From Octopus vulgaris (Eukaryota), in NCBI GenBank assembly GCA_951406725.2, contig OX597830.1:68200001-68264000 (forward strand): a stretch of DNA of 64,000 nt, given 5' to 3'. The position numbers were made by a program, and so were the translations under genes. The stretch's first letter is position 1; the number at the start of each line of letters is the position of its first letter. The notes under the pieces are model-generated. The model was not told the DNA's origin. It saw nothing but the letters and a program-made list of their open reading frames with translations, and did not search any database. Shown here one piece after another: positions 9,701 through 27,700 of the stretch.

Positions 9701-12700
9701 TGGTCTTCTTAACACCAACCACTTTACAGAGTTTACTGGGTGCTTTTTATGTGGCACCAACACTAGAGAGGTGACCAAGTAACTTGCAAAACAAGAAACT
9801 GCAACTGAGGGGGTCAGTAGTGAGGGAGGTAACTTTGTGCCAGATGATGAGAAGTTAGAGTATGAATAAGGGGATAGAAACAGATATGTTGCAGTAGAAG
9901 AGATACATGGCTACTCCAGGTGGAACCAGAGGGAGAGAGAAGAGGGTGAAGAAGATGTATTGGGGCATTCCATCAAATTACAGGGAGGTGTATATATAGG
10001 AATTGGTACAGAGGATTGGATAGGGTGAGTGGGTAGGTAAGTTTATGAAAGGTGAGTAGGAGATGGAGGGGAGAAAAATGCAGTGAATGTGAGTGGAGGG
10101 AGGGGGACAGGAAGATATGTTTTGGGGGAGAGATTCAGAGACATGGATTGTGTGAAGGGGTATAGAAATAAACAACATGCCTTTAGGACATCGATTTTAC
10201 ATAGATAGGCAGATCTCCTGAAGCCCAAATGATCAATTATCCCAGTTCTTTGTCATATCCTCTGTGAAACTCAAAATCTGAAGGTCATTTTACATACTTT
10301 TTCCCACATATTTATAGGTCTTCTTCCTCCTCAAGTTCCATCCACCTTATATATATATATATATATATATATATATATATATATATATATATATATATAT
10401 ATATGTGTGTGTGTGTGTGTGTGTGTGTGTGTGTATATGTATATATATATATGTATATATATATATATATATATATTTTTTTTTTCTAGTTTCAGCTCAG
10501 AGCTGCGGCCATGCTGATGCACCGCCGTTTTGTGCTACACTGTTATTGCGACGAACCTCGTCTAATATGTGGCACTTGGTGAAGAATGGAGTTTGATACA
10601 GCTACTCTCATTTGCACCTCTTGCCGTGAGGTAGGTTCATCTGGGACTCTTGACAGGAAGATGTCCAGCTTTGATTTAAAAACCGCTACATCTACTTTGT
10701 GCAAGTTCCTCAGACTCTTTGGGAGAATATTAAAAAGCTGTGGGCCCTTGAAACCCAGGCTGTTGCAGAAGCTGGTCCTGAAGCGTGATGGCATTGCTGG
10801 GATCTTTGGCACTATGCAGTGTCGTCCCGTTCTAGCATTGGTGTAGCTTACAATGCCAAAATTTGGCACAATTCTTTCCAGGATCTTCCAGACATATATT
10901 ATTGCATACCTCTCCCGTCTTCTCTCCAGGGAGTAGAGTCTTAGCTGTTTCAACCTTTCCCAGTAGCTGAGCTGTTGCAAAGAGACGATCTTCTTTGTGA
11001 ATTTTCTCTGGATTGCTTCAAGGTCAGCTGTTAATTTTACACTGGTGGATGACCATAGCTGTGAGCAGTAATCCAGGCAACTGAGGACGAATGTCCGCCA
11101 GAGGACCATCATGGTTTCCTTATCTCTGGTTCTGAATGTTGAATGTTCTTAGGATCCACCCAGCCAGTCGTCTGCACTTTGTCGCCATCCTGGTAATGTG
11201 CACTTGGAAAGAGGTATCATCACTCATGTCGATACCCAGGTCCCTCACAGACTTAGGCTCTGGGATTGAAATTCCCTGTGGACCGGTGTATCCTGTAAGT
11301 TTAATATTCAGTTTTGGATGCTGGTAGTGCAGGGCCTGGGATTTTTCAGCATTAAACTGCATATTATTATCCTCAGCCCATCTGTAGATTGAGTCCAACT
11401 CCTGCTGCAGGTGTGCAACATCGCTGGGGTTCTGTATTTTCTGCGAGACTTTCGTATCATCTGCATAGCTGGCCAGAGTGGCTATCCGGGCATTTGAGGG
11501 CATATCTGAGAGGGCCACTATGAAAAGCAGTGGTCCCAAGACAGTGCCCTGTGGAACACCGCTCACTATTTGTGTGTTCATAGAGGTGACTCCATTAACC
11601 ACTACTGCCTGACTCCTATCTTTCAGGAAGTCATGCAACCACACTCCAAGTTTTCCAGCTATGCCGAGGTCACGTAGTTTGTGGCATATCATACCATGAT
11701 CCACCTTGTCAAAAGCTTTTGCAAAATCAAGGTAGATTACGTCCACATTTGATTTGTTGAGTAACTGCCTCAACACCCAGTCATAATGCTGTAAGAGCTG
11801 GGTCAGGCAGCTCCTACCTGGTCGAAAACCATGCTGGGTATTACTCAGCAAGTTATTTTCCTCAAGGAATGCGATTAGTTTCTTTCTGACTATCCTTTCC
11901 ATGACTTTGCTGATGTGTGAAGTCAGAGAGATAGGCCTATAGTTTTTGGCATCTGCTCTACTTCCCCCTTTATGTATTGGGCATATTATTCCCTCCTTCA
12001 GCTTGCTTGGCAGTTTGCCATTCGCAAGAAAGCTCTGGAAGAGAATCTTGAGGGGTTTTGCCAGGGCATGCTTAAATGCTTTGAGGAGGATGGCTGGGAA
12101 ACCGTCTGGACCAGCAGCTGAGTTTGTGTCCACTTCATCTATGGCTAGTAGGACATCTTTTTCGCTAATGTCAATTACATTCTATTGTAACCGCCTCGCT
12201 GGTTATAGGTGAGGCGGCAAAGAAGTCCACTGGTTCGTTCACTTGTCTGTGTTCCAACGGGGTGGTAAAGACACTTTTGAACTGACCATTCAGCATCTCA
12301 CTGATCATAGTTGGACTGTCTGTGAGGGAGCCATCCTTTTGGAGGAGGGGTCCTATCTTGTAGTGCACTGAGACTGTTTCTTTCGCGTAATGAAAGAAGG
12401 CCTTTGGGTTTGATTTAATGTTTTTTATAACCCAGGCTTCTTTGTCTGCTTTCTCCTTCACATAGGATTGTTGCAGCCTTTTTTCGATCTCCATCAGTGT
12501 TGTTTTTAGGCGGACGTTTCGCTACTTTTGGGATGTTGGTTGAGACGATTTGCAACCTTCGTCCGTCGTCTCATGAGGATCTTCCTGTCTCTTGGAATCT
12601 TGCTCCTATTTGTTTTGGCCTTGTGCACTGGGACATATTTCTGGCATACGGCTTGCACAGAAGACATGAAACATTCTAGTTTCATGTCAATGTCTGGTGT

Positions 12701-24700: not shown

Positions 24701-27700
24701 GGATGTGTAATGTCAGTACTCATACTCGGCAGAGTGTAAGTACCTTGAGAGAAAATCTGGACCTAAGAAGCATCAGTTGTGGTGTGCAAGAGAGACGTTT
24801 GCGCTGGTATGGTCATGTGGCGAGAATGGATGAAGATAGTTGTGTGAAAAGTTGTGTGAAAAAGTGCCACACCCTAGCGGTTGAGGGAACCTGCGGAAGA
24901 GGCAGACCCAGGAAAACCTGGGACGAGGTGGTGAAGCACGACCTTCGAACTTTAGGTCTCACTGAGGAAATGACTAGAGACCGAGACCTCTGGAAGTGTG
25001 CTGTGCGCGAGAAGACCCGGCAGGCAAGTGAGTCCATAACCCGTGGCCTTCTACATGGGATGGAGCCACCCTACGTATGCATACCTTCCCTTCTTGGGAC
25101 ACAAAACTCTACTTGTGAAGACCTGTTGAGGCAAGTGAGGATCAGAATCGAAATCGATCAATGGAAATTGCAGATGTGTTACCAGTGCCGGTGGCATGTA
25201 AGAGAACCTTCCGTTTCGCGACCGTTGCCAGCGCCGCCCCGACAGGCCTCGTGCCGGTGGCACGTAAAAAGCACCATCCGTTCGTGTCCGTTGCCAGCCT
25301 CGCCTGGCCCCCGTGCCGATGGCACATAAAAAGCACCATCCATTCGTGGCCGTTTGCCAGCTCTGTCTGGCACTTGTGCAGGGTGGCACGTAAAAGCACC
25401 CACTACACTCACGGAGTGGTTGGCGTTAGGAAGGGCATCCAGCCATAGAAACACTGCCAGATCTGACTGGGCCTGATGAAGCCTTCTGGCTTCACAGACC
25501 CCAGTAGAACTGTCCAACCCATGCTAGCATGGAAAACGGACGCTAAACGATGATGATGATATATATATATATATATATATATGTATATATGTATATATAT
25601 ATATATATATGTATATATATATGTATTTATGTATATATATATATATATGTATATATATATATATATATGTATATATATATATATATATATATATATATAT
25701 ATATATATATATATATATATATATATATATATATATATATATCATCATCATCATTTAGCGTCCGTTTTCCATGCTAGCATGGGTTGGGACGGTTCAACTG
25801 GGGTCTGTGAAGCTGGAAGGCTTCATCAGGCCCAGTCAGATCTGGCAGTGTTTCTACGGCTGGATACCCTTCCTAACGCCAACCACGCCGTGAGTGTAGT
25901 GGGTGCATTTTACGTGCCACCCGCACAGGTGCTAGACAGAGCTGGCAAACGGCCACGAACGGATGGTGCTTTTACGTGTCACCGGCACAGGGGCCAGGCG
26001 AGGCTGGCAACGGACATGAATGGATGGTGCTTTTACGTGCCACCAACACGGGGGCCAGACAGAGCTGGCAAATATATATATATATATATATATATATATA
26101 TATATATATATATATATATATATATATGTATATATATATATCATATAATTAAGGGCTAAAGAGGGTTATTCTAAAGCCAATACACTGATTTATCCACTTA
26201 TAATCCGCTTGCTACAGGAGAATTGAAACTGAAAACGGGCAACTAACCTTTTTAAATATACTGCCCACGCTTCCTGATGGATTCCTTTTCTGTAGAGAAA
26301 AGGACTTCATCCTATATTGCTTGTATATATATATATATATATATATATATATATATATATATATATATATATATATGTATGTATATATATATGTATATAT
26401 ATATATGTATATATATATTATATATATATATATATATATATATATATATATATATATATATATATATATATATATATATATATATATATATATATATATA
26501 TTTCTATGTATATATATATGTATATATATGTATATATATATATATTAACATGTGAGTCTTTCTAATATATATATATATATATATATATATATATATATAT
26601 ATATATATATATATATATTAGAAATACACACATGTTAATTAATTCAGTTTGTCTCATAATCAACAACTAACCCATCTCTTAAGAAAACATTACTATACAA
26701 ATCTAATACTCTTTCACTAATACAAGATATGTATACGTAGATGTTAAATCCATCTGCCAAATATTACAAACAATAGAGAGACTTAATTGTAATATATTTA
26801 GAATTGTTCATCATCATCATCATCATCGTTTAACATCTGCTTTCCATGCTAGCATGGGCTGGATGATTTGACTGAGGTCTGGTGAACCAGATGGCTGCAC
26901 CAGGCTCCAATCTTGATCTGGCAGAATTTCTACAGCTTGATGCCCTTCCTAACGCTAACTACTCCGAGAGTGAAGTTGGTGCTTTTACGTGTCACCGGCA
27001 CAGGGGCCAGTCAGGCGGTACTAGCAATGACCTCACTCGAATCTCTTTACACATGCCACCGACACAGGTGCCAGTAAGGTGATGCTGGTAACGATCACAC
27101 TCGAATGGTGCCTTTTACGTGTCACCAGCATGGAAGACAGTTAGCCGCTCTGGCAATGATCACGCTCGGATGGTGCTAAGAGCACCCTACTAACATGGGG
27201 CACATATGTTAAAACAGAAAAGATAGAAATGCTTAATTTACAGGTGATACCATTCTTCACTGCTTCTTAAACTGTCACACACAGGTGTTAGCAACACAGA
27301 TGTTCTATATAAATTCAACATAACCTCTATAATCTTGTTTATTTTAACAGTATAATAAAAATGACATAATGCTCATAACAAAGAAACATTCTCCAACCAC
27401 TTACCCTCTCTAGTCTTAAACTGCATACAACTAAATCCTTAAGGTCACCACACATTCTAAGCTTCTAAATTACTGAGTATTTCTCCTGGCAATCTCAAAT
27501 CTATAATATATCAAACAAGTGTGTCAAGGTGTTGTCTTCCTTTTTTGAACCAGATCATACTTCAGTGCTGTACAACTTTCTACAAAGTTCTTCATTGAGA
27601 AACCTTCAATTGATACGGCCTCCACAACAGGAAAGGGAATGCACTTAAACATCAGAAATAACCTATATTACACAGAAATGAACACCAAGCCTCTTGCTGG

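What the first reader, a model, noticed from the sequence alone, without database searches (positions are those of the whole stretch)
10348..26640. 16-kb LINE stack built on a (TA)n scaffold inside one TRPM intron
Seen: every non-microsatellite block in this span is bounded on both sides by (TA)n, with no ordinary intron DNA between. The blocks are a full-length CR1-A, a 65-bp CR1-B tail, CR1-A, CR1-B, RTE pieces and a Penelope-like scrap. The pattern recurs at 60133-62069. Established: some LINEs target microsatellites (e.g. Dong/R4 at TAA, some R1 and Tx1 families), but CR1 and RTE clades are usually considered non-specific. Inference: these families prefer (TA)n, and each insertion splits the tract and leaves new landing pads, giving a self-reinforcing transposon sink that makes up most of a 21-kb intron.
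Basis: partly seen in the sequence, partly recalled or inferred. Interest (0 to 1): 0.72.

Follow-up and report, generated by a model that had tools for sequence, protein, structure and literature searches.

The report
Octopus LINEs stacked in TA repeats
Seven young jumping-gene copies sit side by side, each separated by a TA repeat, inside one intron of an ion-channel gene; their families land next to TA repeats 7 to 18 times more often than chance across this octopus-like genome, likely because they favour short alternating-AT sites, and regrowth of the repeats may keep feeding such piles.

Summary
The stack is real: 14.5 kb of element blocks and 1.66 kb of (TA)n arrays fill 78% of a 20.9-kb TRPM intron. 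It holds seven young insertions (four CR1-type, two RTE-type, one Penelope-like), none nested, plus two fold-back duplications. The TA preference holds genome-wide but is graded: (TA)5 follows 144 of 324 CR1-A2 ends and 422 of 1252 RTE ends (background 5.1%), and precedes 20 of 26 full-length CR1-A1 5' ends (4.2%). About 47% of ATAT sites here lie at TA tracts, so a short alternating-AT preference reproduces most fractions; long tracts are not favoured beyond their site content. Self-reinforcement is not shown: pairwise clustering loses significance after correcting for ATAT density, and about 67 loci with four or more CR1 pieces are expected without feedback. Tract-specific repeat patterns and a larger stack on C1 leave regrowth plausible. 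Modular TA-linked arrays are known for plant DNA transposons and TA bias for Penelope-like elements; this scan had noted Penelope stacks in this genome. My searches found no report for CR1/RTE.

The parts
9009..9110 (-). TRPM exon downstream of the intron (SLOG domain)
   Evidence: PF18139 profile 172-211, E 1.3e-5; acceptor AG ending at 9111; exon's lower end read from the sequence
30022..30196 (-). TRPM exon upstream of the intron
   Evidence: PF18139 profile 120-170, E 3.8e-12; donor GT at 30021
9513..10347 (-). Old 5'-truncated RTE piece; its 5' end abuts the first TA tract, its 3' (GAT)n tail is not in TA
   Evidence: 68-69% matches to the stack's RTE; sequence
10348..10475 (.). TA tract T1 with an internal (TG)15
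10476..15498 (-). CR1-A1: near full-length (ORF1 with weak CCCH finger, APE, RT; broken by stops and frameshifts), poly(A) tail, about 20 nt short at the 5' end
   Evidence: Pfam; 97-98.8% to relatives; 5' end compared in 29 copies
15499..15734 (.). TA tract T2 with its own 36-38-bp higher-order period
15735..15798 (+). CR1-B 3' tail
   Evidence: 98% to the end of CR1-B; similar short tails elsewhere
15799..15848 (.). TA tract T3
15849..18950 (+). CR1-A2: 5'-truncated at the start of ORF2, APE motifs present, (AATC)n tail
   Evidence: ORF and Pfam; 97-98% to relatives
18951..19294 (.). TA tract T4
19295..21672 (+). CR1-B, 5'-truncated, 8-nt-unit tail
   Evidence: RVT_1; 98% to relatives
21673..21768 (.). 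TA tract T5, pure (TA)48
21769..21923 (-). Fold-back (inverted) copy of the RTE's 5' end
   Evidence: same truncation point, 5 substitutions and one 8-nt indel
21924..22251 (.). TA tract T6, itself palindromic (CA interruptions on the left, TG on the right)
22252..25558 (+). RTE-type LINE, 5'-truncated, RT with a PHD-like finger, (GAT)n tail
   Evidence: Pfam; 96-97% to nearest relatives
25559..25742 (.). TA tract T7 between two tail-to-tail RTE ends
25743..26071 (-). Second RTE 3' tail, likely an independent insertion
   Evidence: 92% to the + copy but 93-94% to copies elsewhere; T7 is not palindromic
26072..26147 (.). TA tract T8
26148..26323 (.). Piece of a very young Penelope-like repeat family
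   Evidence: 679 candidates, many 100% identical; tandem and inverted partial repeats; (TA)5 at both ends in 15 of 17 loci
26324..26618 (.). TA tracts T9/T10 with a 21-nt fold-back copy of the right flank at 26545-26565
60133..64000 (.). Start of a second TA-linked stack (CR1-A3 +, CR1-A2 -), continuing beyond the window

Best explanation
The region is a non-nested pile of seven young retroelement insertions, and their families land beside TA repeats far above chance genome-wide, likely because they nick or prime at short alternating-AT sites, about half of which lie at TA tracts in this genome. Shown: the enrichment, its grading by family, TA at variable 5' truncation points (so the tract was there before or during insertion), and that element bodies hold few such sites (9% of the stack's ATAT), which accounts for blocks lying side by side. 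Inferred: the APE endonuclease's cut preference and/or pairing of the AT-compatible 3' tails with the target sets the preference. Also inferred: after each insertion the two tract halves regrow independently by target-site duplication, slippage and occasional fold-back, which would enlarge the target modestly. The pile likely has no function.
For: 3' ends with (TA)5 starting within 30 nt, forward strand, whole genome: CR1-A2 144 of 324; RTE 422 of 1252; matched background 5.1%. Best-matching copies: 3' A1 20/29, A2 13/29, B 15/28, RTE 9/29; 5' A1 9/20, A2 6/17, B 13/27, RTE 10/28; background 4.0-4.2%. Full-length A1 5' ends: 20 of 26. Motif expectation for (TA)5: ATA 0.28, ATAT 0.47, ATATA 0.63. 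A2 with (TA)10: 74 of 324 = 0.23, between ATA 0.17 and ATAT 0.28, so no excess of long tracts. Summed flanking arrays (median 81 bp, n=32) do not differ from length-weighted background (median 64, P=0.13). Two copies sit inside a SINE's internal microsatellite with 20 and 36 bp of TA; 34 empty sites have a median of 17. A second CR1 lies in the flanks of 8 of 87 CR1 loci; 4.6-6.0 are expected from ATAT count, P 0.10-0.26. About 67 20-kb loci with 4 or more CR1 pieces are expected genome-wide without feedback. Control: Dong/R4-like ends run into (TAA)n, and 0 of 19 hits at 12 loci show (TA)5 in the next 260 nt (read by eye; old copies).
Against: No single motif fits all data. A2 lies significantly above the ATA model and slightly below the ATAT model for (TA)10 (P=0.025). 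Full-length A1 5' ends exceed the ATAT (P=0.001) and ATATA (P=0.04) models and fit only ATATAT or longer. About half of RTE ends (15 of 29) have no alternating-AT run of 4 nt. The stack is still an outlier for its own ATAT content (4 CR1 against 0.41 expected), and a stack on C1 with about 7 CR1 pieces is expected only 0.04 times per genome, although some of those pieces may be duplications. The ATAT correction uses present-day tracts and would hide regrowth. No empty allele or biochemistry was available.
Confidence: 0.6

Rival explanations
1. Strong positive feedback: one ordinary tract took a first insertion, both halves re-expanded to hundreds of bases, and the insertion rate rose with every event, so feedback is the main reason for 16-20-kb piles.
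For: TA is sharply local: 0 bp in window 1-10347, 88 bp in 26641-60132 and 1,657 bp in the stack. The tracts share almost no interrupted 30-mers (only T6 and T9, 8 words) and T2 and T6 have their own periods. A C1 stack has a chain of 7 TA-linked blocks. A toy branching model makes 7 insertions 2,400-4,400 times likelier than a fixed target. Fold-backs flank 3 of 12 background arrays of 200 bp or more, against 5 of 4590 control spacers. PMC5907723 (Discussion) cites maize TAFTA sites growing from 6-8 bp to (TA)50 on each side.
Against: Pairwise clustering is not significant after ATAT correction. Flanking arrays at insertions are not longer than length-weighted background. Uninterrupted arrays of 740-1,440 bp exist, so a large starting target is possible. 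Splitting alone creates no new sites.
Confidence: 0.22
2. The tract is recognised as a structure: (TA)n cruciforms or hairpins break, or are nicked by Penelope GIY-YIG enzymes, and LINE RNPs prime on those ends without using their own endonuclease preference.
For: Several unrelated families share the niche; fold-back duplications centre on TA tracts here and at C1:4.34 Mb; AT/TA repeats form cruciforms and break (PMC12972899, PMC11797062; start of abstract seen in a search listing only). RTE enrichment rises with run length.
Against: Long tracts, the best cruciform formers, are not over-used by A2. Many non-tract A2 copies begin with ATAT or ATA. Dong/R4 ends are not captured. Tails are intact and the A2 APE motifs are present.
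Confidence: 0.1
3. The elements make the TA: tails seed microsatellites (as described for snake CR1-L3), or full-length transcripts carry an upstream TA leader into new sites.
For: All tails end in AT-compatible units. Full-length A1 copies have 5' TA more often (20/26) than truncated ones (9/20; P=0.035). Microsatellite seeding is reported in snakes (PMC8303610, passages).
Against: TA lies at 28 of 64 variable 5' truncation points of CR1 copies, which tails and leaders cannot supply. The 5' rate of full-length A1 equals its 3' rate (P=0.56). Insertions occur inside a SINE's pre-existing microsatellite.
Confidence: 0.05
4. Mis-assembly joined unrelated blocks across TA tracts.
For: TA tracts are ambiguous joins; one similar stack is a whole 8-kb contig (C107). 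No reads were examined.
Against: The tracts are at most about 350 bp; the flanking TRPM exons are consecutive; the fold-back arms differ by substitutions, two of them at CpG; the same junction types occur in hundreds of isolated copies.
Confidence: 0.03

Closest known systems
SaTar modular arrays of guayule and rice (PMC5907723; abstract, section 14 and Discussion part 1 read)
   Same: [quoted passage not shown]
   Different: SaTars are small Mutator-like DNA transposons; here the modules are kilobase retroelements of three unrelated groups in an animal.
Penelope-like Naiad, Neptune and Hydra elements (PMC8557442; passages read)
   Same: (TA)n bias and tandem/inverted partial repeats, as in the 26148-26323 family.
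   Different: Accounts for only one 176-bp block; the bulk of the stack is APE-type LINEs.
Microsatellite-specific LINEs Waldo, Mino, Kibi, Koshi, Dong (PMC3812793; passages read)
   Same: Non-LTR elements found in microsatellites.
   Different: Those are sequence-specific for ACAY, AC, TC, TTC or TAA; the passage lists no TA target and no CR1 or RTE family. The bias here is partial (34-77%).
Tn-TA signature and tail-target pairing of RTE/Bov-B; 3' overlaps in CR1, L2 and RTE (PMC13295347 Results; PMC6007223 passages)
   Same: Cut at a T/A step, with the 3' repeat correlated to the first target bases; this is the likely mechanism here.
   Different: Described as a short local signature, not as accumulation in TA microsatellites; a T-stretch 10 nt upstream was not tested here.
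Microsatellite seeding by CR1-L3 in snakes (PMC8303610; passages read)
   Same: CR1 elements adjacent to microsatellites in a microsatellite-rich genome.
   Different: Seeding is tail-derived; here TA also lies at 5' truncation points.

Membership tests
CR1 clade LINE (A1, A2, B) | ORF2 with APE endonuclease and RT, preceded by ORF1 | tested here: met
   PF14529/PF03372 and PF00078 in A1 and A2, PF00078 in B; upstream ORF with a weak CCCH hit below cut-off
CR1 clade LINE (A1, A2, B) | 3' tail of short tandem repeats | tested here: met
   (AATC)n in A2 and an 8-nt unit in B; A1 ends in poly(A)
CR1 clade LINE (A1, A2, B) | RT groups with reference CR1 elements in a tree | tested here: inconclusive
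   No reference set was held and no tree was built. The few named hits are mostly stork RT proteins at 36-37%; that bird LINEs are mostly CR1 is recalled
RTE clade LINE | Single APE-RT ORF with a trinucleotide tail | tested here: inconclusive
   RT hits and (GAT)n tail present; the copy is 5'-truncated and its APE part gave no Pfam hit
RTE clade LINE | RT groups with RTE/BovB in a tree | not tested
Sequence-specific microsatellite-targeting LINEs (Waldo/Mino/Kibi/Koshi/Dong type) | Nearly all copies sit in the target repeat: CR1-A2 and RTE | tested here: not met
   44% and 34% with (TA)5
Sequence-specific microsatellite-targeting LINEs (Waldo/Mino/Kibi/Koshi/Dong type) | Nearly all copies sit in the target repeat: CR1-A1 and young CR1-B | tested here: inconclusive
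   A1: 20/29 at 3', 20/26 at full-length 5' ends, 24/26 with (TA)3; young B: 12/16 at 3', 9/14 at 5'; best-matching copies only
Sequence-specific microsatellite-targeting LINEs (Waldo/Mino/Kibi/Koshi/Dong type) | Endonuclease cuts the repeat specifically | not testable with these tools
   Needs biochemistry; no solved-structure relative of the APE was found by sequence
SaTar-type arrays | Non-nested modules linked by microsatellite | tested here: met
   8 TA-separated blocks, none interrupting another
SaTar-type arrays | Modules are non-autonomous Mutator-like DNA transposons with TIRs | tested here: not met
   Modules encode RT/APE or are their tails
Penelope-like element (26148-26323) | Partial tandem and inverted terminal repeats with TA bias | tested here: met
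Penelope-like element (26148-26323) | RT plus GIY-YIG ORF in the family, or hammerhead motif | tested here: inconclusive
   One locus (L236) abuts a 369-aa ORF with a weak GIY-YIG hit that may belong to another family; no Rfam hammerhead in 4 loci

The most novel reading that the evidence does not exclude
CR1-A1 and CR1-B are true (TA)n-targeting CR1-clade LINEs, and with RTE and Penelope-like elements they build self-amplifying arrays: each insertion or fold-back leaves tracts that regrow, so single microsatellites turn into 15-20-kb transposon piles that inflate octopus introns.
Probability: 0.28. Interest if true: 0.66.

Novelty: new variant of a known kind. Interest (0 to 1): 0.43.

Why it matters
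CR1 and RTE elements are usually treated as non-specific. Here they show a graded bias, from about one third to three quarters of young copies, towards a repeat that covers 3.7% of the sampled genome. That offers a simple account of local transposon hot spots and intron growth in octopus, and a natural series of related endonucleases for testing how target specificity arises. It also shows that in a TA-rich genome a weak short-motif preference can look like microsatellite targeting. No function is implied for the TRPM gene.

Tried and rejected
Automatic target-site-duplication search: uninformative inside TA tracts; only a few informative duplications were found, such as a 75-bp one at L115. 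Rfam on four Penelope-like loci gave only microsatellite-driven miRNA matches below threshold. PDB search with the APE found nothing. Second stack as a segmental duplicate of the first: rejected, because the A2 copies are 96-97% alike like unrelated family members, with different truncation points. Tail-to-tail RTE pair as a fold-back: judged unlikely. First fold-back test over all arrays: 7 of 524 against 12 of 1933 controls, a weak difference that I did not test; the excess appears only for long arrays. The abundant SINE gave 13/72 heads and 15/103 tails with (TA)5 (tail trimming imperfect; partner LINE uncertain), so it is not a clean control. Older RTE tails in the background gave 5 of 30. 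Orthologous introns could not be compared, as no relatives are held. Reads were not examined, so mis-assembly is untested. Literature searches for TA-targeting CR1/RTE listed no such report; the library lacks most subscription papers and Repbase notes, and no supplements were read.
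Full report
Observation. The span 10348-26640 is as described. Eight element blocks (14,534 bp) alternate with (TA)n arrays (1,657 bp) between two consecutive TRPM SLOG-domain exons, filling 78% of a 20.9-kb intron. The genome (G000, 2.8 Gb) looks like an octopus: the one named hit of the CR1-A2 endonuclease, apart from a 'hypothetical protein', is an Octopus sinensis protein. Seven blocks are likely independent insertions: CR1-A1, a CR1-B tail, CR1-A2, CR1-B, an RTE, a second RTE tail and a Penelope-like piece. 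Their nearest fetched relatives are 94-100% identical, so all are young. The eighth block, 21769-21923, is an inverted copy of the RTE's 5' end around a palindromic tract, and a 21-nt inverted copy of the right flank lies in the last tract. The clade names CR1 and RTE rest on domain content, tails and recalled motifs; no tree was built.

Background. I took 88 evenly spaced 10-kb stretches. Runs of (TA)4 or more cover 3.7%, and a random position has (TA)5 within 15 nt about 4% of the time, or 5.1% under the rule used for whole-genome patterns. These CR1 families cover 0.38% of that sample, and no TA-linked chain was longer than two blocks. The stack is therefore well beyond an ordinary stretch.

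TA preference. Exact whole-genome counts use the forward strand only, because reverse hits are multiply counted. (TA)5 follows 144 of 324 CR1-A2 3' ends and 422 of 1252 young RTE 3' ends: 8.7-fold and 6.6-fold over background. Among the best-matching copies, window copies excluded, 3' junctions were TA in 20/29 A1, 13/29 A2, 15/28 B and 9/29 RTE. Visible 5' junctions were TA in 9/20, 6/17, 13/27 and 10/28. Full-length A1-family copies had (TA)5 upstream in 20 of 26 (3 of 29 dropped for lacking the terminal motif). The Penelope-like family had (TA)5 at both ends in 15 of 17 distinct loci (two overlapping duplicates dropped, ends set by hand). Older copies are less associated: B below 95% identity 3/12 at the 3' end, background RTE 5/30. 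Dong/R4-like ends run into (TAA)n and none of 19 hits showed (TA)5 (by eye; not age-matched). TA at variable 5' truncation points (28 of 64 CR1 copies) and two insertions inside a SINE's own microsatellite argue that TA is the target and not merely a tail product.

Motif or microsatellite? The genome is so TA-rich that 28% of ATA, 47% of ATAT and 63% of ATATA sites are followed by (TA)5. RTE (34%), A2 (44%) and A1 (69-77%) fall along this ladder. A2 shows no excess of long tracts: 74 of 324 have (TA)10, against 0.28 expected for ATAT. Arrays flanking insertions are no longer than length-weighted background arrays (P=0.13). Within the stack, tracts hold 11% of bases but 91% of ATAT sites, which accounts for the lack of nesting. 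The fit is imperfect: A1 5' ends need ATATAT or longer, and 15 of 29 RTE ends have no alternating run of 4 nt. The mechanism, a cut at TpA steps plus pairing of AT-compatible tails with the target, is inferred from PMC6007223 (passages) and PMC13295347 (Results); it was not tested.

Is it self-reinforcing? Splitting a tract conserves the number of sites, so only regrowth can feed back. Eight of 87 CR1 loci have a second CR1 piece within 1.5 kb. That is more than expected by length (2.4-3.1; P 0.003-0.013) but not by ATAT count (4.6-6.0; P 0.10-0.26). A motif-Poisson model expects about 67 20-kb loci with four or more CR1 pieces genome-wide, so this stack does not require feedback. In favour of regrowth: TA is confined to the stacks (0 and 88 bp in the 10 and 33 kb on either side), and the tracts share almost no interruption pattern. 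Fold-backs flank 3 of 12 background arrays of 200 bp or more, against 5 of 4590 controls (another example). Among 14 loci extended because they looked promising, C1:216.19 Mb carries a seven-block chain that the model expects 0.04 times per genome, though some of its blocks may be duplications. The correction for ATAT uses present-day tracts and could hide feedback. I rate modest regrowth as likely and dominant feedback at about 0.2.

Comparison with known systems. The architecture matches the SaTar arrays of plants, which are DNA transposons (PMC5907723; abstract, section 14 and Discussion part 1). TA bias is known for Penelope-like clades (PMC8557442; passages). The listed microsatellite-specific LINEs include no CR1 or RTE and no TA target (PMC3812793; passages). 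An octopus repeat annotation reports active CR1, RTE and Penelope families and hot spots, with no insertion-site analysis in the two of three parts read (PMC13282606). Passages of PMC9115989, PMC10294476 and PMC4760211 added nothing on TA targets. Eight searches listed no report of TA-biased CR1 or RTE. Earlier scan notes describe Penelope ends stacked in TA arrays in this genome; the look-ups showed none on CR1/RTE junctions.

Verdict. A real and recurring structure, and a real but graded insertion bias in clades usually called non-specific. It is best explained by a short-motif preference meeting a TA-saturated genome, with regrowth as an unproven amplifier. New variant of a known kind; interest 0.43.

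Noticed in passing
window 60133-64000 and L151:1-9765: Second stack 34 kb away: CR1-A3, CR1-A2, CR1-B tail, two SINEs, CR1-A3 tail, a near full-length CR1-A3, and TA arrays up to about 850 bp.
   Followed up: partly
L244+L245 (G000:C1:216186001-216206000): 20 kb made almost entirely of CR1 and RTE blocks linked by TA, including a 1,220-bp array.
   Followed up: partly
L149:7500-8100 (G000:C1:4.337 Mb): Inverted duplication centred on a TA tract that copies a SINE tail and a 58-bp CR1-A2 tail.
   Followed up: partly
L151:2170-2930: About 190 bp of flank appears inverted on the other side of a 284-bp TA array, skipping a CR1 tail (read by eye).
   Followed up: no
L262-L290, 5' end of the CR1-A1 family: The element starts with a conserved motif resembling an ETS-factor site (recalled), directly after TA; possible internal promoter. 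Four 5' ends lie within 80 kb on C6 (121.79-121.87 Mb).
   Followed up: partly
L151:1373-1794: The abundant tRNA-headed SINE shares a 3' stretch with the CR1-A 3' end and carries an internal TA/TG microsatellite that takes insertions; an earlier scan note links a dominant SINE's tail to Tx1.
   Followed up: partly
window 24059-24739: The RTE ORF carries a PHD-like zinc finger after the RT core (PF00628, E 7.6e-5).
   Followed up: no
window 14897-15187: Seven copies of a 42-bp unit in the CR1-A1 5' UTR.
   Followed up: no
window 30931-31880 and 38026-38409: Old Dong/R4-like LINE ends; the first was used as a control.
   Followed up: partly
window 54558-55013 and 51783-51940: RT fragment of likely LTR-retrotransposon type, and a DUF7083 hit just upstream of the CR1-B2 piece.
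   Followed up: no
L146-L148 (G000:C3:89.78-89.81 Mb): A CR1-A1 plus older CR1 pair repeated 17 kb apart, likely a local segmental duplication.
   Followed up: no
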